From assembly GCF_009914755.1 (NCBI RefSeq), contig NC_060944.1: a stretch of 64,000 nucleotides of DNA; one strand, given 5' to 3'. The stretch is from the human T2T-CHM13v2.0 reference genome, Homo sapiens. A program made the translations under genes and the position numbers. This document shows positions 20,239-60,699 of this stretch, one piece after another (position 1 is the stretch's first letter; the number at the start of each line of letters is the position of its first letter). Under the pieces are notes generated by a model. The model ran no database searches. It was not told the origin of the DNA and worked only from the letters and a program-made list of their open reading frames with translations.

Positions 20239-20270
<32 letters not shown>

Positions 20271-23772: not shown

Positions 23773-23803
<31 letters not shown>

Positions 23804-24227: not shown

Positions 24228-24258
<31 letters not shown>

Positions 24259-28639: not shown

Positions 28640-31630
<2,991 letters not shown>

Positions 31631-32150
31631 ACAGGCATGGCTCAGGTCCTTTCAGGTTGGTTCCTTAACAGCTCTCACCTCTGTGCCCTCCACTCACCTC
31701 TCTGCCTCCCTGACTTGCTCTCTGAGCTCCCTTCCTCCTTGTCTCTTGGCTTCAGGGTTCTCACTCTGAGCCCGCACAAGTTTGGCCTCCCCTTTGTGAG
31801 TGCATCATCGTGTGTGTGTGTGTGTGTGTGAGTGTGTGAATGCACACCCATGTCTGTGCCTGTCTGTGTCACTGTGGGTCTTATTTCTGTTTCTCTCTCA
31901 CATAGTGGGCTTTGATATAACTTCTGGTTTGCCTCATTCATTCATTTGTTAATTTATTACTTTATTCAGTTATTCCATCTTTAAATATCTTGTGGTGGAT
32001 GCTATGCTAGACAGTGTAGATGTGTGATATGTGTGTGTGGACACATCTGTGAATCTCTCATATTCTGGACCCTTATCATGTGTTGTTCTCACTCGATATT
32101 AGCCAAAAGGCTGAGAAGCAATCAGGTTTTGTTCTCATCTCTGGATTATT

Positions 32151-32580
32151 CCATCCATCCATTCACACACCCACCCCCTATCCATCCACCCATCCTCCTC
32201 TCCACCCACCTACTCACTCACCTATCCATCCACCCATCCACTCATCCAACCACCCATCCATTCATTCACTTCCATTTATCCATCCATCCATCCACCCACT
32301 CACTCATCCACTCATCCATCAACCCATCCACTCATCCATTCACCCATCCATTCATTCACTCCTCCATTTATTCATCTGTCTCTCCACCCACTCATCCATC
32401 AACCCATCCATTCATTCACTTTCATGTATCCATCCATCCATCCATCCACCCACCCACTCACTCATCCATTCATCCATCCACCCACCCATCCACTCATCCA
32501 TTCACCCATCCATTCATCCACTCTTCCATTTATCCATCCATCTATCCATCAATCCATCCACCCGCCCATCCATCCATCTA
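32151..32580. repeat. (TCCA)/(CATC)-rich repeat
   Basis: Read directly. Related tracts at 38155-38600, 44724-44944, 48790-49070 and 52297-52800. Confidence 0.9.
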
Positions 32581-32784
32581 AAATATTCTGTGCCAGTCAG
32601 TGAGAGGTGAGTTTGTGCCTGTATCTGTAGGGTGCCTGTATCCATGTCCCTGCTGTGTGTCTGAGGGTCCCATCTCCCTTCCCTCAATGCCTGGGTTTTT
32701 ATCTCCTTCCAAAGCCACATTTTCCCTTTCTCTTTACAGAGAAGCCTTGTTGGGTTTTTGCTCTGAGTCTGCAAGCCATTCATG

Positions 32785-32822
<38 letters not shown>

Positions 32823-33721
32823 ATCTGTCAGTCTCTCACTTCTTTCCCCCTGGGACTTGGGATGGGCGGTTCCTGGTCTCTGGGTCACTGTCATTTACAC
32901 CTTTTCCATCTATTTGTTGATTCATCCACAAGAGGTTGATTAAACACCTGCTTCATGTCAGGACCTGGGCTGCTCCATTGTGTACGTGTGTGCATGTGTG
33001 AATGCATGCTGTCTGCCATCCCTGCCTTTGTCTCCTTCTCATCCTCTTCTTCCACCTGCCTTCACATCTTGGGGCCCCGGTGCATGTCCTGAGCTCCACC
33101 CTCCTCCTCTGCACCACCTTGCCCTGCCCTTGGTGCTGACGGCCCCAAGGGCCAGGTTGCCCTCATGCTCACAAGTTGGATACTCAAAGCCAATCCTCAG
33201 CTGTCTTTGGTATCACAAACTCAGTGGATGACAAACTCACCACATCATTTCCGCACCCCTGATGTGTTTCTCTCCCTGTTCTCGTTAGCGCTGAGTGTCA
33301 TTGCCTGCCTGGGTCCACAGCCAGGAGCCCCAAGTCATCTATGAGTCCTCACTCTCCTGCCGCCCACAGCCCATCTGTTCTTCCTGTATAATCTTTCCCC
33401 AAAAGCTGCTCAGCACCCCCCAACCCCCACCATCTTATCAGCCCCTGCCACAGCCCTGGCCTAGAAAATTGAAGCCTGGACCACTGTACCCATCCATCCA
33501 TCCATCTGTCCATCCACTCATCACCCACCCATCCATTAATAGACTTGCACTGAGTACACACTGGGTCCCTGCTGAGCACACAGGCCCCAAAGGCAGGAGC
33601 TCAGAGTCCAGAGGGGTGACAGAATAGTTGTCACTGCCCTTCAAGATGGGTGATGGAGACTTCCCAAGGCTTTATGTCCCTTTTGTCATCACACAGTGTG
33701 TTTGGGGGAGTGATCTCTCTC

Positions 33722-34012
33722 TTTTTTTTTCAGACAGGGTCTGGCTCTGTCACCCAGGCTTGAGTGCAGTGGCATAATCACGGCTCACTGGAACCTCTGC
33801 CTCCCCAGCTCAAGCAGTCCTCCTACCTAAGCCTCCCGAGTAGCTAGGACTACAGGCACATGAACCAATGCCCTGCCAATTTTTGTATTTTTGGTAGAGA
33901 CGGGGTTTCGCCATGTTGCCCAGGCTGGTCTTGAACCCCTGAGCTCAAGCAATCCTCCCACCTCGGCCTCCCAAAGTGCTAGGATTACAGGCGTGAGCCA
34001 CTGCACCTAGCC
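33722..34012 (-). mobile_element. Alu (AluJ-like)
   Basis: Reverse-complement Alu dimer. Confidence 0.92.
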
Positions 34013-34904
34013 GGCATCTGTCTTACTTATCACTTTTTCATACCTCCTTCCTCCATCCAACCCTCCACCAGGGCTGTGTCCTCCCGCTTTGGCCCAGGTC
34101 CTTCCATGATTAGTGTGCCTGCACCATGCTGTCCCTGACCAGGGCTGCAGAGATGCGCTTCACGCAGACGGTGCTCATGTACGTCCACCCAGCAGGGGCT
34201 GGATCTGTTCTGCTCTGTGCCGTAATTTGGTCATTCAGCACTGTCTGGCATGCAGTAGGCGCTCTGTCAATTCTTGTGGGTTACAGGCATGGCTCAGGTC
34301 CTTTCAGGTTGGTTCCTTAATAGCTCTCACCTCTGTGCCCTCCACTCACCTCTCTGCCTCCCTGACTTGCCCTCTGAGCTCCCTTCTTCCTTGTCTCTTG
34401 GCTTCAGGGTTCTCTCTCTGAGCCCACACAGGTTTGGCCTCCCCTTTGTGAGTGCATCATCGTGTGTGTGTGTGTGTGTGTGTGAATGCACACCCATGTC
34501 TGTGCCTGTGTCACTGTGGGTCATATTTCTGTTTCTCTCTCACATAGTGGGCTTTGATATAACTTCTGGTTTGCCTCATTCATTTATTCATTTGTTAATT
34601 TATTACTTTATTCAGTTATTCCATTTTAAAATATTTTGTGGTAGATGCTATACTAGACAAATCCACTCAGATGCTCAGCAACACCACAGACTTGCCAAGA
34701 TAGCATCAAACCCCTTAACATCCCCACTCCCCTTCCTTGTTCCCACCCCCATCTCTGAGACCAAAAACCCAGACACCTTCTCTTCCTCCTTGGATGGGGA
34801 AGAGATATCCATCTTCAATTTGACTCTAATTTCTTGCCAATTCTTCCTCTAACATCTCTCCCCTGTCTTCCCCTTTGGTCCTCTCCATCCTCATGGCCAG
34901 TATT

Positions 34905-34918
34905 GTTGCCCTGGCAAC
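34905..34918. promoter_or_regulatory. RFX X-box-like palindrome GTTGCCCTGGCAAC
   Basis: One mismatch to the canonical X-box palindrome GTTGCCATGGCAAC. Confidence 0.55.
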
Positions 34919-35504
34919 GGCCATTCTCCCTTCTCTCCTGGCTGCTCTCAGCTGGGGAGCATGCCCACTTCTCTCTAACCTGTAGAGAAACTCTCATCTT
35001 GATCTGTCTCCCTTCTGTCCCCTCTCTCCTTCCATCATCAGAAGAGCTGGGGAGGGAGCCATTGGCTTCAGTGTTGCCACCCCTGCTTCCTCTGTGCCAG
35101 CCAAGGTGCTCAGGCAGGGCCCTCTACCCACCTCCTGTGTGCCAGATCTTCAGTCTCTTGTCCTTTGCACGTTCATCTGCCCAATGTGAGAGGTCCCTGT
35201 GGGTGTCTTATGGGCTCCTCCTCACCATTGGCTACAATGACCTCTTTTCCTTCCCTTCCCAAACCCATCTTTCAAGAATAACACACTGTATGTCCCCTTT
35301 GATGAAGCCTCTGCTGGCTTCTTCCCCCCAGGACCCCCATCATCTCCCAAGAGCTCCCCCAAGGAACAGCCAGGCATGCCTTGGTTTGGGCACTTTTCTC
35401 CCCTACGAGACTGTGAACCTTGATGTCAGGGTCTTCTGTGGATGTCAGCACAGAGGAAGGCTAGGGATGTGTGTGGCTGGGTGGGGAAGGGGATGGACAG
35501 ATAG

Positions 35505-35912
<408 letters not shown>

Positions 35913-36094
35913 TAACCAAAATTATTTTGCTTTCCAATCTCATCAGTGATATGCAAATACATTTTCTTCTTAAAAGATTAAAACATTACATATGAGACTA
36001 AAGTCTCTTCCACTGTACCCACCACCCTACCTCCTGGTCCCCAGTCCTCTCTTTCCTAAGAGGAAACTAAGTTATCAAATTAGTGGGAAAAAAT

Positions 36095-36150
<56 letters not shown>

Positions 36151-36164
36151 ACAGCCCAAAACAA

Positions 36165-36480
36165 AGCCAATGATGATACTGCTTTCCCTTAAGATCAGGA
36201 ACAAGGCAAGGGCACCTGCTTTTAGTCTTTCTATTTAACATGATATTGGCAGTCCTAGCCAGTGCAATAAGACAATAAAAAGAAATAAAAGAAGATATAG
36301 CCTGGAAAGGAAGAACTAAAACTGTCTCCATTAGCAGATGACATTACTATCTATATAGAAACTTCCAAAGAATCTACAACCCCCCACCCAGAACTAGAAA
36401 GTGAGTTTAGCAAGGTTGCACAATAAAAGGCCAATGTAAAAATGGCCAATATAAAAAAAAGTCAATGAACAGTTGGAAAT
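36165..36480 (+). mobile_element. L1 ORF2 reverse-transcriptase fragment (degenerate), next to (TC)n at 36098-36145
   Basis: gctttcccttaagatcaggaacaaggcaaggg...ccattagcagatgacatt (L-A-D-D, the remnant of the FADD catalytic motif)...gagtttagcaaggttgca. Confidence 0.8.
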
Positions 36481-39400
36481 GGAAGCATATATATTCCTCT
36501 AGAAAATGCAGAATACTGTTTGGTGTTTTTTAAAGAAATGGCCTCATACTGTATACATTATTCTCCAGGGGCTTTTACCTCCAGCAGCCCCCATAGGGCC
36601 CTCTTCCCCCTTTAGAACAGAGAGTTGCACTACATTCTTTTCCTCTGCTGCATAGGATTCTGGAAAAGGGAGGCACTGGGGTTTATGTAGACATTTCCCC
36701 AGGGAAGGACACTTTGGTTGTGTCTACCTTTTCACCATTACAGACGAGGCTGCAGTGAACACACACGTCTCCTTCTGGCTCCCTCTTTTAGGTTCCAGGG
36801 CACTCCAAACCTTGTCTGGGCATTCATCTGTCTCTTGGGGTCTCCAAGTGCTCTGTCACTCCCCTTCTTGGCCTCATTTGCCCTTTGTTTCTCCCTCATC
36901 TTTCCCAGTTCCCCTTGGACTTGGCCCTAGTTCTTGAGTATGTGTGTGGGGAGTGTGTGCGTTGTCTGTTCCCCATTCTGTTTATGTAACAGTAACAGGT
37001 CCCATCAGGAAAGTGATATCACAACCAAATTAGGATAATTTCAGGTGACTCCTCTCTGGGGCCTTTCTCAGGTTTTTGTTCTCACCCTCTGGGCTACCCC
37101 ACCCATCCTCCCACCCACCGTGTACCCATTCAGAAAAACGCACTGAGCCTGTTCCAGGAACTGGTGTTCAAGCTTGGCCATGTGTGTGTCAGGGTGTCTG
37201 TGTGCATGCATGTGCCTGGGTCTCACCTGCCTGCCTGGCCATCTCCCTGAAGACCCCACCTCGCTCTACTTCCCATGCTCTAATTTTTTGAATGTACACA
37301 TCATCTTGCTCATCCAGCTTCTGTCTTGGTCTCCTGGCTCAGTGTGTTTTTTTCCCACTCTCTCAAGAAGTGTTATTTAATTTTGCTCTGAGTTGGTGCA
37401 TCCTTCCTGCTGTGTGTGTGTTTGTATGTGTGTGCACACACACATGCGTGCGCACAGCTTCCCCCTAGCTCCCTCTCTTTTTCTCAAGCTCATAAAGTTT
37501 CCCACTTTCTCCAGGTCTTGCTGTGTGTGCATGCACATGTGTACATATGTTGGTCTTCATTGGATTCCATCCTCTCTGTTTTTCTCAGTGATTCTTCATC
37601 CATCTGCTAGTCCATACATCCAACACACCATACTTGTTGAGCCAGGACCAGGGTCTGCCTGTTTGTCCTGTCTCTTTCTTTCCTTCCTGACTCCTCCTGC
37701 TTTACCTACCCTCACATCTTGGGGCCCCAGGTTCCTGTCCTGGATCATTCCCTCCCCAGCTTTTCACCAGCTCCCTGAGGTTCACAGAGTCATTCTTTGC
37801 ATTGACACTCCAGCATCCCCTGCAGCCCAGACCCTACTTGTTCTCTCCTCATCCTGCCAGTGAATCGTGGCTCACACAGACTGGGCTCTTTCACTCAAGC
37901 CCAGCACATCCTGTCCCCATCCTCCAAATGCGTTTCTCACTCAGTTCTCATTGGCACTGAGCTTCACCACCACCTGGGGTTTCACAGCCAGGAGCACGAG
38001 TCATCTCTGATTCCACTCCCTCCTGCTGCCCACTACCCATCTGTCCTCTTTTCCTTTCAAGTCTCTCTCCAAGGGGTGGCTAAGCAGCCCCCTCCCCACT
38101 CCGATCACTTCAGCCCCTGACATAGCCCAGTTGTCAGGTTTATGATGCCAGGAGCATCCATCCATCTATCCCTCCATTATCCATTCATCCCCCATCATCC
38201 ATCCATGTCCCCATCATCCATCCATCCCCATCCATCCATCCCCCATCATCCATCCCCCATTATCCATCCATCCTCTACCATCCATCCATCCCCCATTATC
38301 CATCCATCCCCATCATCCATTCACCCCCCCATCATCCATCCATGTCCCCATCATCCATCCATCCCCCATCATCCATCCATCCGTCATCCATCCACCCCCC
38401 CATCATGCATCTCCCCTATTACCCATCCATCCCCCATCATCCATCCATCTGTCATCCATCCACCCCCCATCATGCATCTCCCCCATTACCCATCCATCCC
38501 CCATCATCCATCCTCCCATTATTCATCCCCCCATCTTCTGTCCACCCATCATCCATTCCCCCATTACCTATCCCCTCATCGTCCATCCTTTCATCCATCC
38601 ATTAACAGACTTGCACTGAGCACCCACTGGGTATTCGCTGGGGTCACAGGCCACAAAGCCTTAGGCCATGGCCTGTGGGAGCTCAGAGTCCAGGGAGAAT
38701 ACAGAGCAGTTATGCCTGCACTAAAAGATGGCTGATGGAGGCTTCCTAAGACTTTATGTCACGCTGCAAATCACAGTGTGTGTGCATGTGCACATGTGTG
38801 CGTGTGTGCATATGTGTATACATATGAGTGTGCACCTGCGTGTGCATGTGTGTGTGCGCATGTGTGTATGTGTGTGGGTGCATGTGTGCATGGGTGGGGT
38901 CACTCCTGGCTACTTCTCCAGCCCCTTTGCCTCCTCCTTGCTCTAGCGCAGATGCCTCTGCAGCTGCGCCTCCCTCTTCTGCTTCTCTCCCTCCCTGAGA
39001 TCTCCCTGCTTGTCCACTCCTGGGAATTCAAAGGCCCTGCAACAAACTGCCTCACCTCAGTGTCCCCCCATCACGGCTCTTCAGCTCAAGCCCCAGACAT
39101 CACATGTTCACTATTCTCTCCCCTGCTCTGTTCACTGGTTCCACCAGCTTCACAGACTCCCTGAGCCAGGATCAAACTCTCCATCCTCCTACCCCCACCC
39201 CCACTCCCAGACCCAGCTGTCTGGCCACCCCTCCCCTCTCCCTGCCCTACCTCTAATGTGCCCCAGGTCTTCACAATCTTTTCCGCAAAATCTCACTCCC
39301 ACCCCCACCTGACGCTCTCTCTTCCCCATGGCCCTCTCAGCAGGTAGATGAGGTGGTGGAGGTGGGGGTGAGACTGTGCGCCCTCATAGGCTCCCTCCTG

Positions 39401-41848
39401 TTTGGCCACAGATGAGCTGGGGAGGGAGTATTAGGCCTGGAGGTTTCTCTGCCTTCCCCTCTGCAACTGAGGACCCCTGCCCTAAGCCCCTCATAGTGCC
39501 CCGCAAGTCTGCCTACCTGCTCCTTGACAAACCTGCAGCCTATCCATTCTTCGCTCCCCTGCCCCATGGAGGCCAGTGCTGGCTTCTGGACAGCAGCCTC
39601 TCCCTGGGCCCCAGACACGGAGGCCAGACTTTCCCGCACCTCTCAGTTGGGCCTCCTCCATTCCTTTGAAGGGTTTCTCCTGCCAGCTGCGTGGGACTCC
39701 GGTGCTCCAGGGCCCTGCCCTGCCTGCTCCCCAGCACTTTCCTGCCCTTCCAAGGCTGACCCTGGCCAGGCTCCACTCTGGCCCTCTCTGCAGAGCCCAG
39801 ATGTCATCAGCCTGACGGGGAGGCTCCATGTGGAGTGGCCACCAGGTTCCATCCCCTTCTCCCACGCCCCACCATTGTAGAGAAGAAGGCCTGGGCCCTT
39901 GTCCTCCCCAGAGGGCCCTTGTCCTCCCCAGAGAAGCTCCCGCTGAGCCTTCCCTTGGGCCCTCCTGGATGCAGGGAGCACTCCCCTGGGAGCACTCAGC
40001 ACCAGGCTTGTGGTCGTCCTTGTCCCCGCCAGGCCACGGGCTCTGTGGGGCCTGGGTGTGACCTCTCTCAGGGTCTTGGCACTGAGGGAAGTGTGGAGAT
40101 GAGGACAGACGGGGCATCTGCGAGCTCTGCTCTTCTACCCTCTTACTCTTTCTCCCCTTGTTGCTTCCCATCTCCTTTTGGAAAATCATTTTTTAACTCC
40201 ACACATGCTATAAAGACCCACTGTATTTGTAAAAAACTGAAGCCTTCCATGTAGGACTGAGGTGCCCTTTGACCCCTGCTCCTCTCTTCATTCAGGCCCC
40301 AACAGGAAACAGATGTCTCCCTCCAATCTAGGAAGCCTCAGGAGGGTCTGTTTACAAAGGTGCTGAGGGAGGGGGTGCAGGAGCCAGGAGAGCAGCAAAC
40401 TTGTGATTTCCAGTGAATCCAAAGGAACCAGGGAGGAGAAGTTTCCAGAAGGCAGCTGAGAGGGCAGCTGAGAGCAGAGGGCACAGCAGCCTGAGCTCTG
40501 GGGGAGCAGACATGCTGATCTCCCTCCCTCTTCCCTCCACTCTCCTGCTGGGGGTCCCCAGTGGCCAGGTCCAGCGCGAAGCTGTAGGCCCAAGGCTCAT
40601 CCACGGGGCTCAGCCTCCCCAGCCCAGAGCAGGGAGGAGGAGCGGGGCCGGTGGGGCGGGAAGGGCAGGTGTGGGAGTCATTGGGCATCTGCGTCGCCCT
40701 GGGGGCTTTCCCCCCTGAGGCCTTTCTCAGGCTTGGTTGCCCTCTCTGTGCTGCGGCGTTCACCACCCACCTAACAAAAGCATGTGAGCGCCTCCTGGGA
40801 GCCGGCGGGTGGGCTGCGCGCCTGCTCCTCCGCCTGTCTGCCTCCCCAGGCTTCTGCTCCCCTTCCTTGACTTTTCAAACTTTTCTCTGATGCACCACCC
40901 CCTCTCTCGGTGCCTCTGTCTCCTGCTCCCTCAGCCTCGCTCCTCCAACTCTCCAGGGGAGCTTGTTGAATTGGGCTGTTTGTGCATCATTCCTGCAGTG
41001 TGCGCATGAGTGTATACACAAGGTCAAGGTTGGTTCCCACCTTTCCCGTCCTGCTTCATCTGTCTGTGTCTGCCCACCCATCTATCCAGTAGTCATTCAA
41101 CAAACGTGAATTGAACATCTGTGTGTGCGCTGCTGAGGGTGAAGAGCCCGGAGTCCCACCCAGGCTGTGTCCTGAAGAAACTTGGAGTCCAGGGCAGACA
41201 CACCGGTTGTTATATCACAAGAAGACTGGGTTGGGTCACCGAGCATCACACTCAGGGTGTGTGTGTAATGTGTGTGTGCATGTGGGTGTGTGTTGTGTGT
41301 ATTGTGTTATGTGTGTTGTGTGTGTGTGTTGTGCGTGTACATGTGCATGTGTGTGTTATATGTGTGTTGTGTTGTGTGTTGTGTGTATGTGTGCGTGTGG
41401 TGTCTTTCTGCATTGCCCACTTCTCCACACCCGTTCCTCCCTCACCCCTCCAGCGTCAGCCAGCCCTGGGCTGTGTTCTCTTCCATCTGCGCCCCTCCAC
41501 GCATACCCCCTCCCCGGGCCAGGCCGCCCACCTGTGGGGCTTCTGAGATTCCCTCTGCTTGCCTCTGTGTCCACCCGGGCCCCCCTACGTACACCCCAGG
41601 CCTACGCATCTAAACATCTTCTTACCCGCCCCCACCTCCTGGACGTCCCACCGGCATCACAAACTCTCTAAGCCCAGGGAGAAATCCTTGACTTCCCAAT
41701 CCTTCCCCTGTGCTCCCCTTCACCATCCCTGGGCACTCGAGTCCAGGCGCCCTTCCCCTCTACTGCCCCCACCTTTCAGGTTTGCCTCCTCTAAGCCACA
41801 CTCCCACCCCGTCTTCCCTTCACTCCTCTCCATTACCCCATTCGTGTG

Positions 41849-41862
41849 GTTGCCCTGGCAAC
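41849..41862. promoter_or_regulatory. RFX X-box-like palindrome GTTGCCCTGGCAAC
   Basis: Identical 14-mer to 34905-34918, at the equivalent position in another array unit. Confidence 0.55.
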
Positions 41863-42740: not shown

Positions 42741-42936
42741 GTGAAACCTCGTCTCTACAAAAAAAATCAGAAAATTTGCTGGGTGTGGTGGTATATGTGC
42801 CTATAGTCCCAGCTACCAGGGAGGCTGAGGCAGGAGGATCACCAGAGCCCAGGAGTTTGACGAGGCTGCAGTGAGCTGTGATCTCACCACTGCACTCCAG
42901 CCTGGGTGACAGAGCAAGAGCCTGTCTTGAAAAAAA
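42741..42936 (+). mobile_element. Partial Alu (linker plus right arm)
   Basis: gtgaaacctcgtctctac...gcactccagcctgggtgacagagcaagagcctgtc followed by an A-tail. Confidence 0.85.
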
Positions 42937-44443: not shown

Positions 44444-44498
<55 letters not shown>

Positions 44499-46608
44499 TT
44501 GTGCATGTGCTGGCTGACTTTCCCCTGCAGCTCTCTCTTTTCTGGGGCTTGTGGAGTTTTGCTCTAAAGTTCTAAATTTCTTATTGATTTTCCTGATCCT
44601 AGTTTCCACCCCCTTTCCCAGAGGAAATTTTGGTTATCACAATGATGACCAGCAAAGTGGTCACATAGGAGTCTTTTTCTTCCTGGCTCTTTTATCTGAT
44701 TTTATTCTTACTCCCTGAATTACTCCATCCATCCACCCATCCTTCCACTCCATCTATTCATCCATTCATTTATCCATTATCTATCATCCATCCAACCATC
44801 CATCCATCCATTCATCATCCATCCATCCATCTCTCCATCTGTTCTCCCATCCATTCATTCATCCATCCATCCATCTCTCCATCCATTCATTCATTATCCA
44901 TCCATCCATCCATCCATCCATCCATCCATCCATCCATCCATCCACAAACACAGCAGCTACTGAGTGCCAGGACCCATGTCCTTTTTCCTCTCCAGTCACC
45001 GTTGTGAACACACATGTGGGTCTCATCTCTTGCTCTGAGGTGTGACTAGAGTTGCCCCCCACCCTCTCTGTCACTCTCCTTGCTGTTTGTCTCCTGCTCT
45101 TTTATTTGTCTATAAACTGCTTAGTTAGTTCAGTGCCAAGGGTGGTCTGTCTGTCCTGTCTCTCCTCCTCTACTTCCCTAACTCCCCCTCCGTCTGTTCT
45201 CACACCATGGGGCCCCAAGGCCTATCTGGAGTCTTCTGCTTTCTCTGCACACATTCCCTGGATGTGCTCACCCACAGCTTTCTGTGCTGACACCACCCCC
45301 TTGGCCCCTCATGCAGCCCAGACCCTTTCCCTTCCCCTTAAGACACAGGCTCAAGCTTGACGAAGCCCTGCCCAGCTCAAGCCATCGCATTGTTTTTGTA
45401 CCCACCAGAGGTGCTCTATCTCCATTCTCCTTGGCACTGAGCATCTCTGCCACCCAGGGCTCAGCAGCCAGGAGCACCAAGTCACCTCTGGCTGCTCTTA
45501 TCCCTGTCTTCATGGTCCATCTGTCCCCTCTTCCTGCCACATCTCCCTCGAAAGGGCAGGTAGATAATCCCTCTCCATCCCCTCAGCCCCTGCCTCAGCC
45601 CTGATGTAAGAATCTAGTGCCTGAACCACATCCATCCATCCATCCCTCCAACATCCATCCCTCCACCACCAAACATCAGTTGGACACTTCCTAGGTGCTC
45701 TGATTATGACACAGACGCCCAAACCCCAGGCTATGCCCTGCAGAAGCCCAGAGTTCAGGGAGAAATTCTCTTGAGATCTTGGCCTTCTGTTAATGTCTCC
45801 TTCCTGCCCTGCCCCCCACCAACTCCTGTGCACAGAAGTGCTGGGGAGGGAATCCTAAGCTCTGCTGTTTTCTCCACAGCCCCACTTCTCTATGGCTACC
45901 TGTGGCTGGCTCTGAACCCACCACCAGGCTCAGGCAAGGTCCAGAGCCCCAGGCCTGAACTTCCTGCCGCTTCTTCCTGTTCTGCCTTTTCTGCTGGGGC
46001 AGTTTTCTCTGGGAAACAGGGTGGCTTACTATCCATGCCTTTTTGCACACAGTAAAGTCCAGACGTAAGCTCCCATCTGCCTGGGGTGGAGACGGAGTCT
46101 CCCTATGAACACCCTACAGGTATGTCCTCCTACTCCACCTCTGGCCTCCTTCTTCTTCCTTCCCCCTCCACGTATTAAGAATAAGGCATCATTGAAAAAA
46201 ACAAAGGAGGCTGAGAATAAGTGGAGAATCAAAGTCTGTGCAGTTGAAGAGCTGAGGCTTTGCAAGTTCAACAACAAAGAGAGAGGGACTGTGGAATCCA
46301 AACTAGATAAGAGTGAGGAAACTGGGTGGGAGGACAGTGTACAACTGGCAGGTGCAATGAGGACAATGAGGCCCTGGGTCGTCCCCACAGAGGCCTTTGC
46401 TGGCTGACTCCTGTCTTCCAGGAGCCCCCGGGCATGGGTATGAGGGCATCTTTCTCTTCGCTCAGACATGGAGCTTCCTGGGAAGAGGACCTGCACCTGG
46501 CTTCCTTTTGGGTCTCAGGTTGGAGAGGAGGATGGACAAATGGAAGGTGTGTCTTTCTACTAGTCTCTTTTGCTCCTCCTTTGCCGCCTCTCCTCTCACC
46601 CTTTATAA

Positions 46609-47815
<1,207 letters not shown>

Positions 47816-50800
47816 TAAAATTAATTTTTAATTACACAAGTCATTCACGGACCCACTGTCTTTGTAAAAAACAAAAATCAAAGTGTTGTACATAAGACTG
47901 GTGTTCTTGTCCACTTCCCATCCCATCTAGCCCAGGGTACAAATACTGCTCCCCCGAAGTAATCTCAGTATTGATTTGGGAGAATCATTCCACTCTCTGT
48001 ATATGATATTTTCTCACGAAAAAAGGCAAGTCCTGTGGGTGGTGCTGGCTTTGGTTTTGATGTCAAATGAGAATCATATTGAACCAGGCACACCTGCTCT
48101 GTGGTGGGCTTTTCTGCACAACAGCGGATCACAGATGGCTTCCAGGACTCAGAATCTCTGCTGCATGGTAGTGCGGAGGCCAGGTGAATGGTGGTTGATG
48201 CCACTCTGTGGATGGGCATGTAGCTGCTTCCCCATGATCACTATTACAGACGAGCTAGCTGCAAACACCCCGGCCCAGCCTGCCCCCATCCCTCTGCATG
48301 CACAGTGCTCGCTGAGCTCCAGGCTATGATCTGTTATGTCCTCCCCTCTCCTTCTCGACTCCATCTCCTCCTCCTGTCCTCCAAGGTCAGGCCCCACTCC
48401 TTGTCCTGGTCCCACTCTTCTGGCTGACACCGCTATCCCTCACTTGCCATCCGAACTCTGCCCTCAAATGCAGAATCAGACTTGAAACCAATATGGACCC
48501 AGAGCTTCTCACCCACAAGTCATCTTCACATTCCAACCCATCACCTCCCAGGGCCAGCCACACACTTCCTGGTCTCAGCACTGAGCATCACCACCTGCCA
48601 GGAGTTATCTCAGCTGCCAGGAGTTATCTCTGACACCTCCCTCTCCTGTCACCCATGGCACATCTGTCTCCCCTTCCTGCTGCTGAATCTTCCTCCAAGG
48701 GGCTGTTCAAGACCCTAACCCAACGCCTCAGCCCTGGCCACAGCAGGCCTTAGCATCTCATGCCTGGACCATAGGCCTGTGTAACTACTTCTTCCATTCA
48801 TCCACCCACACATCCATCTATTTTCCTTCCTTCCTTCCTTTCTTCCTTCCTTCCTTCCTTCCTTCTTCCCTCCTTTCTTTCCTTCCTTCCTTCCTTCTTC
48901 CCTCCTTTCTTTCCATCCTTCCTCCCATTCATTTTTACGTATCCATCCATCATTTCTATCCATCTACCCATCCATTCATCTATCCACCCATTCATCTATC
49001 CATCCATCCATCATCCACCCATCCATCGTCTACCCATCTATCACCCACCCATTCACCCATCCATCCATCCAACAAGCATACACTGAACACCTACTGGATG
49101 TTCTGCTGAACAAAACACACAGCTCCCAGAGCCCAGGAGACATCCTGGTGCATCTGTGTCCATGAGGAAGCAGACTCATCATCTGCAATGAAAATATGGG
49201 GTGATAGGTGCCACCCATGTGTTTGTGTCACTGTGCCTCACAGTGTGTGTGGTGTGTGAAAGGGAGAGATGTCCACGTCTCTGGGCCCACGCTAGATCTC
49301 TCTGCTGAAGCAGCACGCTTTCAACCATGCACCCCACTGAAGACCCTGCCAACAGCATTGACTCACTAAGTCCTCCACAGGCTCTGTGTTTTCCCCGTTT
49401 TCCCAAATCCAGGACTGAAAACAGGCAGGCCCCATGCCCTCTGCCTGCCTCCCACTTCCAGCCCAGGGCCACTTCCTCCTCTAAGGGCTCTCTCCCATCT
49501 TCTCCTCTGATCCTCTCTGTGCTCCCAGGCAGTGCCTTTGCCCTGGCAACAGCTGTCCCCTCCCGTAGACCCTCTCCTGCGCTGTTTCAGCAGGTGGGCA
49601 AGCTCACCCCACTCCTACCCAGGAGTCCTTCCTTCTCCCTTGACCTGTTCCCTTCTTCCTCCTATGCCTTCTTTCCTCCCAGACCAGCCGGGTGGGAACT
49701 CTCATCCCTGGATGTGGCCACTCCCTCCCTCCCATCCTGCACACCCCTGCAGCTGCTCTGTACCTGCCAATGGGGAGAAAAGAGGCCTCCAAACCCCACA
49801 GCCCATTTTCTCTCCATTGATGGCCTCTGATGCTGGGGGTCTCTCCTGGCTTCTCAGCCCCTTTCTTTCCTTGATTCTACCTCTCGGGCCACCCTTCTCC
49901 TGTTTCCTCTGCAGCCTCCTTGGCTTCCATCAGCCCTCTGTGTCCATGTCCCCAGGGCCCCATCTTCCCTCTCCCTGTGCTCTGCCCCCCAGGCAGCCTT
50001 CCCTAGAGCCTGTGTGACCATCCTCATGCTGACCTCATCCAGCATCTCCCCTCTCATCCTGCAGCTGTGCTGAGCAGGGTCATGGGAGGCCCTGGGAAGC
50101 CCCCTGTCCTCCTCAAAAGAGTCCTTGCTAAGCTCTTCCTGGGGGCCCCTGACCTATTGGGCGAGGATTCTGTGTCCGGAGCACCCAGATATATGTGTGT
50201 TGGGCAACTTTCCCCACCCCCAGGCTGTGAGCACCTTGAGGGAAGGACCTGCATCTGATTTGTCTTTGCTGAATGGCTATGACTATGGCAGAGGCCGGAG
50301 GGACAGACGAACTGAGGACAGACGGACTGAGGAGAGCGCTCCTTCCTCCTCACTCTCGTGTTCCCTTTTTTCCTTCCATTTTCTTCCTCTCCTAATTAAA
50401 AAATTAGTTTTTAATTATGTGTGGTACATGAAGCAATTATTTTTGCACAAAATTTTAAAAATTTTTTGTGCTTTCACAAAATTAAAGCATGACAAAAGGC
50501 TGAAGTCTCTTCTCTCTCCCTCCCGCTTCCCACCTCCAATTCCCCCAAAAAGGGGAACCTCTGTGGCCAGTTCTGTGTGACCCTGTCCACACAGCCTATA
50601 TGTGTCCTCTCATCTAAATAAAACAGAGCTGCATTTGGTGGTGGTGGGGTGTTGTTTAAAATATAAATACCATTTACTCTGTGTAAATTTTGCCAATAGC
50701 TTTGTCTGTCCAGTGATGAGTCTTCGAGTTCTTTCCACGAACATGTGGGTGCACCGTCATTGGTGTGCAAGAGCCAAAGTGGGCACCTCTTCCTCATCCT

Positions 50801-53800
50801 GCTCAGCGATGGCACGATGCTAGCCTGAAATTGGCCATGGTGGTAGTATTTACACTACAGAAGCGGGCACAAGCAACCCATAGGGAACATTCTCCCCAGA
50901 GGGCCAGTGTGCAAGCATACCCCAGGATGCACCCTGTTTCACAGATCTGGGTCTTTCGGGAGAGAGCTGCACTGTGGGTGACCAGCTCTCCTGTGGATGG
51001 ACATGGGTGTTTTCCCCTTTTCACCATGACAGATAATGTCACCACAACCTTATCTGTCACCGATTCCTCTTCTGCCTTGCCCTCTGCTGGGTTCTGGTGT
51101 GGTGGGGCGGTGGGGCGGAGGGGTCCTCAGAATTCGTCTACAGTATGTGGGTTCTTTTCTGTCTGTCCATGGAATGTGCTGCCTCTTCAGGTCTCTGGGA
51201 GTCTGTCTCTCTCCTTCCTTCCTTCATCTTTCCTCATCCTCTCCCTCGTTTCTTCTCCTCCTCTCCAGATTTGGCCCTTGCCCCAAGGGTCACGATCTGT
51301 GGCTGCTTCTGTGTGGAGGTGTGGGTCCCACTGTGCACCCCTCTATTTAGGCCCTTTGTCAGGCTTGTCCTCCCCCGTCTTTCCCTCCTCTTCCATGTGC
51401 ACGCATCTCTGCATCTGCCTGCGTCTCAGCTCCCCGAGGGTCCTGCCGCCCCCTCTTCATTTCATTTTTTAACTTTATTATTGATGTGCCCCGCCAACAC
51501 TGCCTCTTCCTGCATCTTGCTCAGCCTCGCTCCCTCTCGCTCTCCAGAGGAGGCTTATTGGATTTTGCTTCAAGTCTGTGCGTCATTCCTGCTCTGTGCA
51601 TGTGTGCGCACATGTTCGTGCGTGTGTGTGCCTACCACTTTCCCCGTCAGCTCCCTCTCTCTCTTTCTGGGGCTTGGAGAGTTTTACTCTATGTGTGTGT
51701 GCACAGGTGCACATGTGTGTGAGTCACTTCTCTGTAAGGTATGGTCAGGGCTGGGTCCCACCCTCCCTGTCACTCTCATGAACTCCATCTATCCACAACA
51801 TGCCTGGTGAGCTCTGGACCAAGGTTTGTCCATCTGTCCTCTCCTGTTCTCTTCTTTCCCTCCTCTTGCGCTGCACCTGCCCTCTGCACAAGAGGTGCCC
51901 CTTATGCACCTTGGGCATAGAGGCCTCTGTAAGGACATCCCCCAATCTCCTTCTGCGTCTGAAAATCACCCACCTTCATTCTCTGTTGCATGCCACAGAT
52001 TTGGGGCCAGTGTTGACTGGGGCCCTCCAGAGGTACCTCAAACTCATCTAATCATCTCTGCACTACAAACTGGCCCCTTTCCTGTTCTCATTAACACTGA
52101 ATGTCAGTGCCTTCCTCGGTGTGGTGCTGCAGCCAGGAGCCCTGCATCGTCTCTGACTACTCCTGTTTAGCCACCCACAGCCCATCTGTTCCCCCTCCCT
52201 GCCAACTCTTTCTCCGAGGGGCTGCTAAAGGCCCCCATTCTCTCAGTCCCTGCTGCAGCATCGTGTGGAGATGAGGGGATAATTGTCTTCCTTTGTCCAT
52301 CCATTCATCCATCCATCCATCCATGCATGCATTCATCCAACCATCCATCCATCCATCCATCCATCCATCCATCCATCCATGCATCCATCCATCCATCCAT
52401 CCATCCATCCATCCATCCATCCATCCATGCATCCATCCATCCATCCATCCATCCATCCATCCATCCATCCATCCATGCATCCATCCATCTATGCATCCAT
52501 CCATCCATCCATCCATCCATCCATCCATCCATCCATACATCTACCCACCCATCCATACATGCATCCCTCCATCCATCCATCCACCCATCCACCCTTCCAT
52601 CCATACATCTACCCATCCATCCATCCATCCATCCACCCATTCCTCCATCCATCTGTTCATTCATCCATTCATTCAGCCATCCATCTGCCCATCCACCCAT
52701 TCACCCACCTATCCATCCACCCATCCATACATATGTCCACCCACCCATTCATCTGCCTACTCTTTCATCCATCCATCCATCTATATATCCATCCATCCAT
52801 CCCTCCCTCCTACCACCTGACATACATTGAGCACCTGAGTGCTCTGTTGAAGACAAAGACTCCAAAACCCCGGGCTGTGTTCTAAGGAGTCCAGGGGGAG
52901 AGAGGACCAGTTACCACCCATGGGAAGATGGGGTGATAGGGACTTTGGAAGTCTCCAAGCATCACCGTGTGTGTTCTTGCATGTGCATATATGCATGTGT
53001 TTGCTCTGTCTTGGCCACTTTCTCAGACCCTTCTCTTTCCTCCTGATCTCTACTATCAGTGCTCCCCAGGGCTGTGTCCTCACCCCTCTGCCCTTGTCCT
53101 TCCATGGGCCATACTATCCACACCAGGGCTTCAGAGGTCCCTGCACACAAACTCCTCTGCATTTCTGTGCTCATCTCCCCTCTCCCAGACCTGTATACTC
53201 ACTGTCCTGTCCTCAGCCCCACTCAGTCATACTCCCAGCATCATACACTCCCCAGGCTCCAAACAACCTCCCTCCTCTCCAGGCTTCATCTTATGCTCTC
53301 ATCCTCCATCTCCAGGGACAGAAATCCAGGCTTCCCCTTCTCCCCACCTCCTTCCTTTAAACTTGTGCTGACTCTTTCTCCCAAATCTCCCATCTCCTCC
53401 TTTGCTCCTTTCATCCCATGGCCAGCATGGTTGCCCTGGTGACAGCCATCCTCTTCCCTCCTTCTGAGTCTGCTTTCCAGCATGAGAGATGTGTTCTGGT
53501 GACCTGTTCCTCCCATGCTCTGTCTTCTCTCTCTGTCCATCTGCAGAAAATCTGGGAAAGGGACCCTTGGCTTTACTTGCTTCCATTCCCAGCCCACGCA
53601 TACCCCATCCTTGGCAAGGGACCTCAGCCACATTGAGCCCACCATGGTTCTCAAGAGAGCTCTCCATAGACCTCCTTCTTGCCAAAGCCCATGGTCCCTT
53701 TTTCCTCCTCATTTCTCCTGGCCCATTGGGGTCCTGATTGGGGTGCCCATCCTTGCTTGGGAGGCCACTGTCTCCTCCTTCAGGACACTGGGTGCTCCTG

Positions 53801-56769
53801 GCTTTTCTCCCACCCATTGGGCAGTTTCTCTCTTCCATCCACCTCTCAATACTGATGCTTCCCAGAGCTCAGTCCTCCACCGCTTCCTGCCCTGCCCGTT
53901 CCCCAAGGGCAGCTTCCTCCACCCCCAGGACATCTGTGGCCACCCATTGTCCTTCTTGGACATAGAGCTCTCTCCTGAACTGGGACTTGCACATCCATGT
54001 ACCTGAACACAGGACTAGACACTTCCCTGCCCTTCCCACACTGCTCTTCTTTTCTCCAACCTCCTCACCTGCCCAGCTCCCCATCCTCAGCACAAGTAGA
54101 CCAAGTCTCAGGCACTTTCTTGACTCCTTCTGACCACATCCAGTCCCACCATAGGGCTGTGCCTCCAGCACACCACCACCATCCCATCTGGGTGTCAGCT
54201 CCCAGGGCCTCCCGGGTTTCCCATCTCCAGCCTTGCCCCTTCCTGTCTACACTTGGTGAGGCCACCCAAGCCACCTTTCTAAATCTCCCACTTGGCAGCT
54301 CACCCTTCACTGGCCTAACCCCACTAAGCCAGCTTCCCCACCTCCCCACCCTCCTGATAAACTTCAAGCCAATTTTTCCTGCTTTAAGGCTCTGGGCAAG
54401 GCCAAACCCTCACACTCTTGGTGACTTATCCTTCTGCCCTGTCTCCAGTCACAAGGAACCTCTTGCAGTGCAGAAAGACTCACCCTCTCCCCACCTTCTG
54501 GCCTTTGCTCAAGCTGCCCTTGGCAGGAACGCCTCTCACCTGTCTGCCTGGCACACAGCAAGGCTTCTCTTGGCTCAGGCACTTCATCCTCCCTGATGAA
54601 GTCCCAGGGCCTCTCCCCTGAAAGCCCCCATAGCATCACAGGATCACACCCCTGGGAACAGCCAGGCACATGCATGTGTTTGGGGGGATCTTTCCCGCCA
54701 GACCACGGGCATCTTGAGAGCCTGCATCTGAGTTCTCTCTGAGTGTCAGCACAGAGGAAGGCTGAGGAATGTCTGAAGCTGGAGGAACTTCAAGTTGAAA
54801 AAAAACACTAAAATTTCAGGAAGGAAGGACTAAAGTCTCCTTTGAAACCTCCTCCCAAATCCTGATTTCTACTTATTTTCCCACATGGATCCTCAGTTAT
54901 TAGACTGATGTGAATTATACTGGTAGCTAGCTAGCTAGATGATTGATAGGAAGGAAAAAGGAAGGAAGGAAGGAAGGAAAGAAGAGAAAACTTGTTCTAT
55001 TATTGTTGGTTTGGTTATTGTTGTTTGAACATAAATACTACACACTGTGCATGTGATTTGGCAGTGGCCTTCCTCATTCAGCAATGTGTCTTGGGTCTGC
55101 TTCCATGTCAGAGTTTAGGTGCATCACATTCTTTTATCAGATGCACAATGGCCGAGCTGGCTTCCTCCTGCCGATGAGCATGTTGGTGTCCCTGCTCTTT
55201 TGGTGAGGTGGTAGCAGCTTCTGTGCATGGCCTCTTTCTGTGTCTCACTCTAGGGTCCCCAGTGTGTGATCAGGCTGCCGTGTGCCTGCTTGTCTGTCTG
55301 TCTGTGTGTGCACACATCTGCCTCTTTGCCTCTCTGAATCTCTCTCCTTCCTTTTCCCATTCTCTCTCATTATTCCATATTCCCTCTAGATTTGGTCCCC
55401 ATGTTGCAACACAACTGTGTTTGTGTGTCTCACCCTGGGTCACATCTGTGGGTTCCTCTTTACTTGGAGCCTTTTCTCCTTCTGATTCTCATTCACTTGG
55501 TGACTTCTCACCCCTGTGCATCCACTTGCTCTGCCATCCATTCATCCACCCACTTTGGACATTGAGCATCTTCCAGGAGCTGGACAGCTCCCATACGTGA
55601 GTCAGTGTGTGTGCCCCCTCTGTGTACTGCCCCTGGGTCTCTGCCTGTCTGTGGGCCTGTCTCTCCGAGCCCCCTTCTCCCACCCCTGCCTTCATCCTCC
55701 TCAGCTGCACTTCCTTCTGCTCTCCAGAGGAAACTTATGGAATTTGCTCTGTCCACGCATCATTCCTGCTGTGTGTGTGTGTACTTGTGTGTACGTGTAA
55801 GTGGGTCATCTCTTTCTGAGGCATGGTCAGGGTTGGCTTCCACTCTCTGTCACTCTCATGGACATTTCATCTGCTTGCCTCTCCATCCAGCCATCTGTAG
55901 CATGCTCAGCTAACTCTGGGGCAGGGTCTTCCTGTCTGGTCTGTCTTCCTTTCCTTCTCTTTCTCTCACTCCTCACACACTCCCCGGATGAACTCATCCC
56001 CTGCCCTCTGTGCTGACATCTCCCTAACTGCTCCTGCAACCAAGACTCCCCACCTTTTTCTCTTCTTCGCAAGCCACTAGATTCCTCCCCAGGAGAATCC
56101 AACCCATTGCATCATCTTCACACCCTGAGATGTGTTTCTCTTCCAGTTCGCATTAGCACTGAGCCCCGCTGCCTGCCTCAGGCTGCAGTGGGAGACTGAG
56201 CCATCTCTAACTCCTTCTGCTGCCCACGGCACATCTGTCCCACTTCCTGCCAAGTCTCTTTCCAAGGGACCACTCTGAGACCCTTCTAACCCCAATCCCT
56301 TCAGCCCCTCTCTCTGGCCAGGCCCCAGCATCCTGTGCTTGGACAACTGAAGAGGCTTCCTCCTTTGTTGTCCATCCTCCACTCCCACCCCCTCTTCATC
56401 CTCCATTAACCTCTGGAAGAATCATGAATCACCTTTGCTTAAATCCTCCCATAGCTTCCATGTCACTCACAGTAAAAGTTAATATTCTCACCATGGCCCA
56501 CAGGCCTTACCCAGTCTATTTCCTGTTACCTCTCTCCTTTCATCTCCCACTCCTTTCCCCCTTGCTCATGTTGCTCCAGCCACATGGGCTTCCTTGGTGT
56601 TCCTTGAGCAGACAGACACCAGGGCTGTCACCTATGGTTGTTCATGGCATGAGGGCACCTGGCAGAGGATGTCAGTGGAGGACAAAACCCAGCCCTTGTT
56701 CTGTTCTCCAAGCCATGAGCCCTGGTTTGGGGTTGCCTCTGCTTAGAAGAAAGATTGTCTATTTCTTTT

Positions 56770-60507: not shown

Positions 60508-60699
<192 letters not shown>

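What the first reader, a model, noticed from the sequence alone, without database searches (positions are those of the whole stretch)
32100..56340. Cryptic ancient tandem array of a ~3.5-4.5 kb composite module downstream of SRC
Seen: landmarks recur in fixed order and orientation. (1) ctttctcaggtttt-like at ~32120, 37062, 40720, 44092, 51351. (2) ctccagagga..ttattgaattttgctctg..gcatcattcctgc+(TG)n at 32737, 37361, 40951, 44385, 51541, 55721. (3) cacatcttggggcccc-like at 33063, 37713, 45203. (4) gcactgag..cagccaggagc..tcatctctga..cccatctgtc at 33281, 37941, 45421, 48571, 52081, 56141. (5) a (CATC)n tract. (6) ttgagcacc/gcactgag..gagtccaggg..gatgggtgat at 33541, 38605, 41101, 45680, 49080, 52821. 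(7) X-box. (8) tgtcagcacagaggaaggct-like at 35444, 42605, 54745. (9) L1-like gactaaagtctc at ~35996, 40254, 43010, 47895, 50498, 54828. The module is a mosaic of L2/L1/MLT relics and microsatellites, so repeat masking would hide it, and it looks too diverged for segmental-duplication tracks. Inference: a fossil macrosatellite or amplified enhancer cassette with no coding content. I do not know of a description of it, but could not search.
Basis: partly seen in the sequence, partly recalled or inferred. Interest (0 to 1): 0.85.

Follow-up and report, generated by a model that had tools for sequence, protein, structure and literature searches.

The report
Ancient tandem DNA array downstream of SRC
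A 28-kb stretch of non-coding DNA just downstream of the human SRC gene is the worn-down remains of about eight head-to-tail copies of one ~3.5-kb segment; it is real and unique in the genome, but most likely an inert fossil of an old duplication burst.

Summary
Window 28,018-56,370 carries a head-to-tail array: one fragment (U0) plus seven units (U1-U7) of an ancestral ~3.3-3.7 kb non-coding module, all on the + strand and collinear.

- **Beyond chance:** nhmmer tiling gave 312 + strand and 8 - strand matches. Reversed queries gave 7.
- **Divergence:** identity is 68-84% in the ancient BLAST segments, and median 63% in the best 175-bp core.
- **Unique to this locus:** unit sequence has no relatives elsewhere in the 3.1-Gb genome. 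The exceptions are microsatellites and two unit-specific inserts of dispersed repeats. A core signature matches 11 genomic sites, 5 of them here.
- **History:** the unit tree is star-like, which suggests one amplification burst.
- **Age:** unit divergence (K2P 0.39-0.59) exceeds that of the window's Alus (0.27). No Alu, pseudogene or other dispersed-repeat insert found is shared between units, so the array predates primates.
- **Content:** no per-unit RNA family, no protein domain apart from RPL7AP14, and no CpG island were found.

The most likely reading is a neutral fossil of unequal crossing-over. I rate it a new member of a known kind, of modest interest.

The parts
28018..28375 (+). U0: isolated copy of block B3 (landmark 4 core). 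It is the most upstream recognisable remnant and overlaps RefSeq enhancer 27,761-28,261.
   Evidence: Not in the training set of the unit HMM, yet hit at E 7.6e-31. Pairwise nhmmer matches to the B3 copies of U1, U2, U4, U5, U6 and U7. Aligned in A1 and A2.
32545..35940 (+). U1, which lacks the first ~1 kb of the unit. Blocks: B2 32,545-32,926 with (TG)17; B3 33,009-33,536; B4 33,494-33,716; B5 34,749-35,209; B6 35,284-35,567. Later inserts: Alus at 33,722-34,011 and 35,558-35,854, and a 470-bp insert at 34,190-34,659. An (ATCC)n tract lies just upstream at 32,150-32,585.
35941..40176 (+). U2, a complete unit. Blocks: LM9/B7 35,875-36,097; B1 36,528-37,049; B2 37,050-37,515; B3 37,516-38,154; (CATC)n 38,155-38,588; B4 38,553-38,790; B5 38,862-39,600; B6 39,686-40,176. 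A U2-only dispersed-repeat insert lies at 36,180-36,445.
   Evidence: 2,478 first-look candidates for the insert.
40177..42907 (+). U3, which lacks B3 and the (CATC)n tract. Blocks: B7/B1 40,177-40,767; B2 40,710-41,075; B4 41,076-41,265; B5 41,219-42,426; B6 42,257-42,740. A partial Alu lies at 42,741-42,936.
42908..47811 (+). U4. Blocks: B7/B1 42,934-44,080; B2 44,081-44,566 with (TG)25; an extra (TCCA)n tract at 44,724-44,944; B3 45,004-45,636; B4 45,632-45,801; a partial B5; B6 46,366-46,618. It ends with an Alu split by RPL7AP14 (46,615-47,813).
47812..50362 (+). U5, which lacks B2. Blocks: B7/B1 47,807-48,297; B3 48,306-48,822; (TTCC)n/(ATCC)n 48,823-49,071; B4 49,020-49,272; B5 49,467-49,790; B6 50,065-50,362.
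50363..54800 (+). U6, a complete unit. Blocks: B7 50,363-50,650; B1 50,847-51,281; B2 51,354-51,690; B3 51,689-52,295; (TCCA)n 52,296-52,810; B4 52,766-52,990; B5 52,967-54,007; B6 54,506-54,800. A U6-only dispersed-repeat piece lies at about 50,766-50,897.
54801..56370 (+). U7, the 5' half only. Blocks: B7/B1 54,802-55,490; B2 55,490-55,800; B3 55,764-56,370. The array ends here.
   Evidence: no tile match beyond about 56,370. One search supports the block copies.

Best explanation
This is the decayed remnant of a tandem amplification. A non-coding, pyrimidine-rich segment of about 3.3-3.7 kb was copied head to tail to at least eight units. I infer the cause was unequal crossing-over or replication slippage, in one short burst. 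That burst came before the primate Alu expansion and probably around or before the radiation of placental mammals.

Since then the copies have drifted apart roughly neutrally. They have lost blocks (B3 in U3, B2 in U5, most of U0, the 3' half of U7). They have grown or shrunk their (TG)n and (ATCC)n microsatellites at the same relative places. They have also taken up unit-specific insertions: four Alus, a processed RPL7A pseudogene, two dispersed-repeat fragments and one local 476-bp copy.

- **Shown:** the array, its orientation, collinearity, uniqueness in the genome, star-like relationships and relative age.
- **Inferred:** the duplication mechanism, the absolute age and the lack of present function.
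For: **Real and directional**
- nhmmer tiling gave 312 + against 8 - strand matches, and 7 with reversed queries.
- All 19 low-copy BLAST pairs inside 28-57 kb are + strand and collinear.
- The array window holds 15 + pairs. Nine of the 11 windows that do not overlap 28-57 kb hold 0-3; the other two hold 8 and 7.

**Local duplication, not repeated insertion**
- Of 108 low-copy pairs in 264 kb, 18 are array-internal. Only 2 link the array region to outside: one is a TG tract, the other lies outside the units.
- Whole-genome searches found:
  - U2 3' part: itself only.
  - U2 5' part: itself, sister units and three short TG-type matches.
  - 37,900-38,150: 3 of 3 matches local.
  - U5/U6 junction: itself only.
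  - U6 3' part: itself only.
  - U6 5' part: 7 sister-unit matches, 33 matches confined to one ~130-bp insert, and 2 to another short stretch.
- The B3 signature pattern matches 11 sites in 3.1 Gb, 5 of them in the array.
- HMMs of LM2 (the landmark-2 stretch of B2, without its TG tract) and of the B3 core find only their own copies in 264 kb; the next best hits are E 0.066 and 6.1.

**One burst**
- In the maximum-likelihood tree, end branches are 0.35-0.67 and inner branches at most 0.084. None of the 4 inner branches is starred.

**Old**
- Median K2P between units is 0.53 (B3 core), 0.39 (LM2 proper) and 0.59 (B4). The nine Alus of the window give 0.27.
- No Alu, pseudogene or other insert sits at the same place in two units.

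**No sign of a product**
- The 18 Rfam matches are all Alu-type or lie in the TG-rich tract 38,776-38,863, and none recurs per unit.
- Pfam found only RPL7AP14 above its cut-off.
- CpG observed/expected is 0-0.47, with no island.
Against: - **Uneven conservation.** LM2 and the B3 core stand at 0.61-0.69 mean pairwise identity against 0.41-0.55 for the rest of the unit. A 7-base stretch, CATCTGT, is invariant in all 7 B3 copies. This could reflect constraint rather than drift.
- **Enhancer overlap.** One B3 copy overlaps a RefSeq enhancer (hub annotation).
- **Later copying.** The 93% identical 476-bp pair shows that sequence was still being copied within the locus long after the burst.
- **Search limits.** The genome search is word-based and scores only the best candidates, so very old repeat relatives would be missed.
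- **Untested.** No other mammal could be examined, so the age rests on divergence alone. Global alignments inflate that divergence through misalignment.
Confidence: 0.72

Rival explanations
1. The array is a retained cluster of paralogous regulatory modules, such as redundant or 'shadow' enhancers for SRC or the BLCAP/NNAT domain. Each unit would contribute a B3 and/or LM2 element, and selection would have kept those cores recognisable.
For: - The cores are the best-kept parts of the unit: 0.61-0.69 against 0.41-0.55 mean pairwise identity.
- CATCTGT is invariant in 7 of 7 B3 copies.
- RefSeq enhancer 27,761-28,261 overlaps U0, where B3 is the only part of the unit still recognisable (hub annotation).
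Against: - Even the cores differ by K2P 0.39-0.53.
- B3 is absent from U3 and LM2 from U5.
- There is no CpG island or other sequence mark.
- The identity peak partly rides on adjacent microsatellites.
- One high-throughput enhancer call in eight copies is weak.
- No epigenomic or cross-species data were available.
Confidence: 0.13
2. The units are independent insertions, or an LTR-internal-LTR style array, of one composite transposable element rather than duplications of resident DNA.
For: - The start of B4 gives marginal matches (E 0.008-1) to a motif found elsewhere on both strands. From memory, that motif resembles the end of MIR/L2 elements.
- The LM9 (unit-boundary) block matches a second small array about 45 kb downstream in inverted orientation.
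Against: - Six genome-wide searches of unit sequence found no copies outside the locus apart from microsatellites and unit-specific inserts.
- The downstream LM9-like copies are themselves locus-specific: 3 of 3 matches are local.
- All units share one orientation and abut each other.
- No reverse transcriptase, integrase or other TE protein domain was found in the 46 frames scanned.
Confidence: 0.05
3. The pattern is an artefact of low-complexity, pyrimidine-rich composition and shared microsatellites rather than true homology.
For: - The + strand is 57-64% pyrimidine from 8 to 60 kb.
- Apparent B2-like matches upstream (12-25 kb) vanished once the TG tract was removed from the model.
Against: - Reversed queries of identical composition gave 7 matches against 320.
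- Block HMMs without microsatellites find every unit copy at E 1e-21 to 1e-53, but these rows trained the models. The independent test is U0, hit by the unit HMM at E 7.6e-31.
- Nothing else in the 264 kb scores better than E 0.0078, including the equally pyrimidine-rich 8-24 kb.
- The block order is conserved.
Confidence: 0.01

Closest known systems
Macrosatellites (D4Z4, DXZ4 and similar; names recalled)
   Same: Multi-kilobase units arranged head to tail in one orientation at a single locus.
   Different: Known macrosatellites keep high unit identity through ongoing exchange and vary in copy number. For comparison, the kilobase-unit arrays in the passages of PMC2588610 that I read are listed at >84% to >99%. 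Here the units are 54-71% identical even in the best core. The tree is star-like with no sign of homogenisation.
Ancient, highly diverged tandem repeats as a class (PMC12418385; passages read)
   Same: Repeat copies have diverged until they are almost imperceptible. Ordinary repeat finders miss them; the TRF run here reported only microsatellites in the region.
   Different: The passages I read concern proteins and short units across many genomes. They do not mention this locus or multi-kilobase non-coding units.
Segmental duplications (the usual definition of at least 1 kb and at least 90% identity; recalled)
   Same: Local duplication of resident genomic DNA.
   Different: Identity is far below 90%. 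The one 93% pair is only 476 bp.
Tandem non-coding RNA gene clusters (SNORD115/116, C19MC; recalled)
   Same: Kilobase-scale tandem units in non-coding DNA, near an imprinted domain (BLCAP/NNAT).
   Different: No snoRNA or miRNA family match recurs per unit.

Membership tests
Tandem repeat array (macrosatellite-scale) | Units of 1 kb or more, head to tail, in the same orientation and adjacent | tested here: met
   Seven units plus one fragment. LM9 (unit-boundary landmark) spacing is 2.6-4.9 kb. 312 + against 8 - strand matches, with collinear blocks.
Tandem repeat array (macrosatellite-scale) | High identity between units, maintained by ongoing exchange | tested here: not met
   B3 core pairwise identity is 0.54-0.71. 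The tree is star-like, with inner branches of at most 0.084.
Tandem repeat array (macrosatellite-scale) | Copy-number polymorphism in the population | not testable with these tools
   Only one assembly was available.
Segmental duplication | At least 1 kb at 90% identity or more (recalled definition) | tested here: not met
   The ancient unit pairs are 68-84% identical in BLAST segments. The only pair above 90% spans 476 bp.
Interspersed repeat (transposable element) family | Many dispersed copies in the genome, on both strands | tested here: not met
   Unit sequence matched only itself and sister units genome-wide. The exceptions are microsatellites, the U2-only insert 36,180-36,445 and the U6-only insert at about 50,766-50,897. 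The search is word-based, so very old families could be missed.
Interspersed repeat (transposable element) family | Match to a curated repeat consensus (Dfam/Repbase) | not testable with these tools
   No repeat library was held. The resemblance of the B4 start to MIR/L2 ends is recalled; the tool evidence is marginal (E 0.008-1).
Tandem snoRNA/miRNA cluster | One RNA-family match per unit | tested here: not met
   18 Rfam matches at E of 1 or less, all Alu-derived or in the TG-rich tract 38,776-38,863, none periodic.
Enhancer cluster | Open chromatin, enhancer marks or reporter activity at each unit | not testable with these tools
   The only evidence is the hub's RefSeq enhancer 27,761-28,261 over U0. 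The positions of '2 more' enhancers were not given.

The most novel reading that the evidence does not exclude
The array is not inert. An ancestral regulatory module was amplified eightfold next to SRC, and its B3 core (with the invariant CATCTGT stretch) and LM2 element have been kept by selection as a battery of redundant enhancers or insulator-like elements. They would act on SRC or on the neighbouring imprinted BLCAP/NNAT domain. That would make it a rare case of enhancer multiplication by ancient tandem duplication, still traceable in sequence.
Probability: 0.1. Interest if true: 0.6.

Novelty: new member of a known kind. Interest (0 to 1): 0.33.

Why it matters
Multi-kilobase tandem arrays this diverged fall between the usual catalogues. 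They are too long and too diverged for tandem-repeat finders, and the TRF run here reported only microsatellites in the region. They are too diverged for segmental-duplication tracks, and they are not transposable-element families.

This one shows that about 28 kb of the 'unique' SRC-BLCAP gene desert was built by one old amplification burst. That has three practical uses:
- It explains the odd strand composition of the array itself (28-56 kb), part of the wider 8-60 kb asymmetry, and its recurring microsatellites.
- It warns that regulatory elements called there may be paralogues of each other.
- It offers eight natural replicates of one sequence for studying long-term neutral decay and microsatellite persistence.

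If the conserved cores proved functional, it would be an example of enhancer multiplication by tandem duplication.

Tried and rejected
- **Sequence-only covariance model of the B3 core:** built, but the tool does not search this genome with a model. I used a two-anchor pattern and local HMM searches of 264 kb instead.
- **Whole-unit genome search:** swamped by the (CATC)n-type minisatellite and uninformative.
- **Upstream extension to 12-25 kb:** suggested by tile matches, then rejected. With the TG tract removed, the LM2 model finds nothing there better than E 0.066.
- **476-bp pair as a transposable element or LTR pair:** rejected, because it has no other copies in the genome. I saw no poly-A tail and no obvious target-site duplication at its sharp edges.
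- **Same ancestral element in U2 and U6?** The dispersed-repeat inserts at 36,180-36,445 and about 50,766-50,897 showed no similarity.
- **Pfam on open stretches of the U2 insert:** 0 of 3 matched, so my recalled impression that it is a LINE-1 ORF2 fragment is unconfirmed.
- **PRDM9-type 13-mer (recalled motif):** 13 in the window against 7.6 expected, with 3 of 100 shuffles reaching 13. Only 4 of the 13 lie in the array, so there is no enrichment worth noting.
- **Literature:** five searches and passages of PMC2588610 and PMC12418385 gave nothing on this locus. Subscription-only papers and browser tracks such as self-chains were not searchable.
Full report
**The observation**

A Hamming search around each claimed place put 58 of 77 motif/site pairs within two mismatches. 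For 8-10-mers this is a weak test, because I estimate a chance hit at about 0.2 per site. I therefore relied on alignments.

Unmasked self-blastn of the window is dominated by Alus and microsatellites. I removed segments lying mostly on positions hit five or more times. That left 26 low-copy pairs in the window. Nineteen have both members within 28-57 kb, and all nineteen are + strand and collinear. Eighteen are 68-84% identical over 55-315 bp; the nineteenth is the younger 93% pair described further down.

nhmmer was run with 104 overlapping 600-bp tiles from 27-58 kb against the whole window.
- It gave 320 non-self, non-masked matches: 312 on the + strand and 8 on the - strand.
- Of the + matches, 281 have targets inside 27-58 kb. 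Only 1 - match does.
- The same tiles reversed, which keeps their composition, gave 7 matches after the same mask.

I then compared against 264 kb of chromosome 20: the window plus 100 kb on each side.
- Nine of the eleven 30-kb windows that do not overlap 28-57 kb hold 0-3 low-copy + pairs; the other two hold 8 and 7.
- The window 30,001-60,000 holds 15.

**Anatomy**

Homology covers nearly the whole unit, not just the landmarks. The block order is:
1. B7/LM9 (the unit-boundary landmark)
2. B1
3. B2 (landmark 1, then LM2, the landmark-2 stretch, then (TG)n)
4. B3 (landmarks 3 and 4)
5. (ATCC/CATC)n
6. B4 (landmark 6)
7. B5
8. B6 (landmark 8)

The units are as follows:

| Unit | Coordinates | State |
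|---|---|---|
| U0 | 28,018-28,375 | B3 only |
| U1 | 32,545-35,940 | lacks the first ~1 kb |
| U2 | 35,941-40,176 | complete |
| U3 | 40,177-42,907 | lacks B3 and (CATC)n |
| U4 | 42,908-47,811 | lacks part of B5 |
| U5 | 47,812-50,362 | lacks B2 |
| U6 | 50,363-54,800 | complete |
| U7 | 54,801-56,370 | 5' half only |

- U0 was not used to train the unit HMM, yet it scores E 7.6e-31. It lies about 5.05 kb upstream of the U1 B3 copy.
- No tile match lies beyond about 56,370.
- LM9 spacing is 4,258, 2,756, 4,885, 2,603 and 4,330 bp. Removing the 1.2-kb Alu/RPL7AP14 insert from U4 leaves about 3.7 kb. I estimate the ancestral unit at 3.3-3.7 kb.
- Landmark 1 at 32,120 is not supported.
- Landmarks 8 and 9 at 42,605, 40,254, 43,010 and 47,895 are diverged, but they sit at the homologous alignment positions.

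**Local duplication or repeated insertion?**

The whole T2T genome was searchable.
- 37,900-38,150 (B3): 3 of 3 matches are local.
- 36,500-38,150: itself, three sister-unit matches and three TG-type matches of 30-47 bp elsewhere.
- 38,900-40,300, 50,100-50,700 and 52,830-54,800: each matched itself only.
- 50,363-52,290: itself, 7 sister-unit matches, 33 matches confined to a ~130-bp stretch (about 50,766-50,897), and 2 to another short stretch.
- 35,873-36,600: besides itself, 40 scored matches, all within about 36,150-36,445, from 2,478 first-look candidates.

These two stretches are unit-specific inserts of dispersed repeats. They are unrelated to each other.

Three further tests agree.
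- A two-anchor signature of the B3 core matches 11 places in 3.1 Gb. Five are in the array, and the other six share nothing between the anchors.
- Of 108 low-copy BLAST pairs in 264 kb, 18 are array-internal. Only 2 link the array region to outside: one is a TG tract, and the other lies at 27,823-27,905, outside any unit.
- HMMs of LM2 (without its TG tract) and of the B3 core find only their own copies in 264 kb. The next best hits are E 0.066 and 6.1.

One caveat applies. The genome search is word-based and scores only the best candidates, so relatives as old as MIR or L2 elements could be missed.

**The 'TE mosaic' claim**

No repeat library was available. Two hints exist.
- The B4 HMM gives marginal matches (E 0.008 to 1) on both strands elsewhere, to the motif at its start. 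From memory, that motif resembles the end region of MIR/L2 elements, with the adjacent (ATCC)n tract as a possible descendant of the element's tail. This is a lead, not a test.
- The LM9 block matches three inverted copies at window coordinates of about 98.9, 100.6 and 102.8 kb. Those copies are themselves a locus-specific mini-array, since 3 of 3 genome matches are local. This does not show a dispersed family.

**History and age**

A maximum-likelihood tree was built on 2,691 columns filled in at least 70% of the seven units.
- It is star-like. End branches are 0.35-0.67 and inner branches at most 0.084.
- None of the 4 inner branches is well supported. The best is U5+U6 at 84/94.

That fits one short amplification burst, or loss of signal through misalignment.

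| Sequence set | Median K2P |
|---|---|
| LM2 proper | 0.39 |
| B3 core | 0.53 |
| B4 | 0.59 |
| Nine Alus of the window | 0.27 |

(All.)

None of the Alus, the RPL7A pseudogene or the two dispersed-repeat inserts sits at the same place in two units. The array is therefore older than all these inserts and well older than the Alus. From general knowledge of human-lineage neutral divergence, I infer an origin around or before the placental radiation, very roughly 100 million years ago or more. That date is not tested.

**Function**

- **RNA:** Rfam gave 18 matches at E of 1 or less, all Alu-derived (SRP, mir-3135, mir-1268) or in the TG-rich tract 38,776-38,863. None recurs per unit.
- **Protein:** Pfam on 46 of the 127 stop-to-stop frames of 90 aa or more found only Ribosomal_L7Ae in RPL7AP14, plus one DUF2813 match below its cut-off.
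- **CpG:** observed/expected is 0-0.47, with no island.
- **Uneven conservation:** mean pairwise identity peaks at 0.61-0.69 over LM2 and over B3 through B4, against 0.41-0.55 elsewhere. This is partly inflated by microsatellites.
- **Invariant stretch:** CATCTGT is invariant in 7 of 7 B3 copies.
- **Enhancer overlap:** the hub's RefSeq enhancer 27,761-28,261 overlaps U0.

These points keep a regulatory reading alive, at about 0.1-0.15. They are equally compatible with rate variation and with a single high-throughput enhancer call.

**Setting**

The + strand is 57-64% pyrimidine in 12 of the 13 4-kb bins from 8 to 60 kb; the exception is 24-28 kb. The 53 bins outside 8-60 kb average 0.516 with a standard deviation of 0.038. 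C exceeds G and T exceeds A. As I recall the usual signatures, this is not the pattern of transcription or replication asymmetry. The ancestral unit was itself pyrimidine-rich. The region upstream (12.8-24.9 kb) has its own older direct repeats, so the whole domain may have grown by repeated local duplication.

A 476-bp pair at 93% identity (31,538-32,013 and 34,190-34,659) is unique to the locus. Its second copy is an insertion relative to U2, U3 and U6. This shows later local copying.

**Verdict**

- The best explanation is a neutral fossil of one tandem amplification burst (0.72).
- Rivals: a retained enhancer battery (0.13), a composite transposable element (0.05), and a composition artefact (0.01).
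- Five literature searches and passages of two papers found no description of it. Browser self-alignment tracks, which could already display it, were not searchable.
- It is a new member of a known kind, of modest interest.

Noticed in passing
window 31538-32013 and 34190-34659: A 476/470-bp direct pair at 93% identity, 2,652 bp apart, with sharp edges and no poly-A or obvious target duplication. It has no other copy in the genome. The second copy is an insertion into U1 relative to U2, U3 and U6. This is a much younger local copying event than the array.
   Followed up: yes
window 46615-47813: RPL7AP14 (46,779-47,662, - strand) sits inside one - strand Alu. The two halves of that Alu flank it at 46,615-46,779 and 47,667-47,813. 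This is a processed pseudogene nested in an Alu, inside unit U4.
   Followed up: partly
window 8000-60000: A ~50-kb domain of strong purine/pyrimidine strand asymmetry starts right after the SRC 3' end. The + strand is 57-64% pyrimidine, against 51.6% (SD 3.8%) in the 53 4-kb bins outside 8-60 kb. The bin 24-28 kb is an exception.
   Followed up: partly
window 12856-15445, 20236-20530, 22931-24896: A separate set of + strand direct repeats, for example 12,929-13,287 with 14,461-14,769 (E 4e-24) and 14,825-15,034 with 20,276-20,530 (E 9e-16). It overlaps RefSeq enhancers 14,111-15,129 and 23,363-23,976. It is not demonstrably related to the array once TG tracts are removed.
   Followed up: partly
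window 59986-60546 and 62423-62979: A direct pair at about 70% identity, 2.43 kb apart (E 1e-43), just downstream of the array. Inverted pairs lie at 57,822-58,040/58,673-58,888 and 57,681-57,841/59,763-59,915.
   Followed up: no
L007 about 4870-5180, 6640-6915, 8790-9060 (window coordinates about 98.9, 100.6 and 102.8 kb): A three-copy, locus-specific mini-array with a period of about 1.8-2.2 kb and 71-73% identity. It matches the LM9 (unit-boundary) block of the main array in inverted orientation (E 1.5e-9 and 2.6e-6).
   Followed up: partly
window 36180-36445 and about 50766-50897: Two unit-specific inserts of dispersed repeats, unrelated to each other. The first has at least 2,478 first-look candidates genome-wide, at 71-77% identity apart from one match each at 82% and 66%. 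From memory it looks like a LINE-1 ORF2 fragment, but Pfam did not confirm this.
   Followed up: partly
flanks, window coordinates 88170-88791 and 107681-108304: An inverted pair at 95% identity over 625 bp, 19.5 kb apart, in the SRC-BLCAP desert.
   Followed up: no
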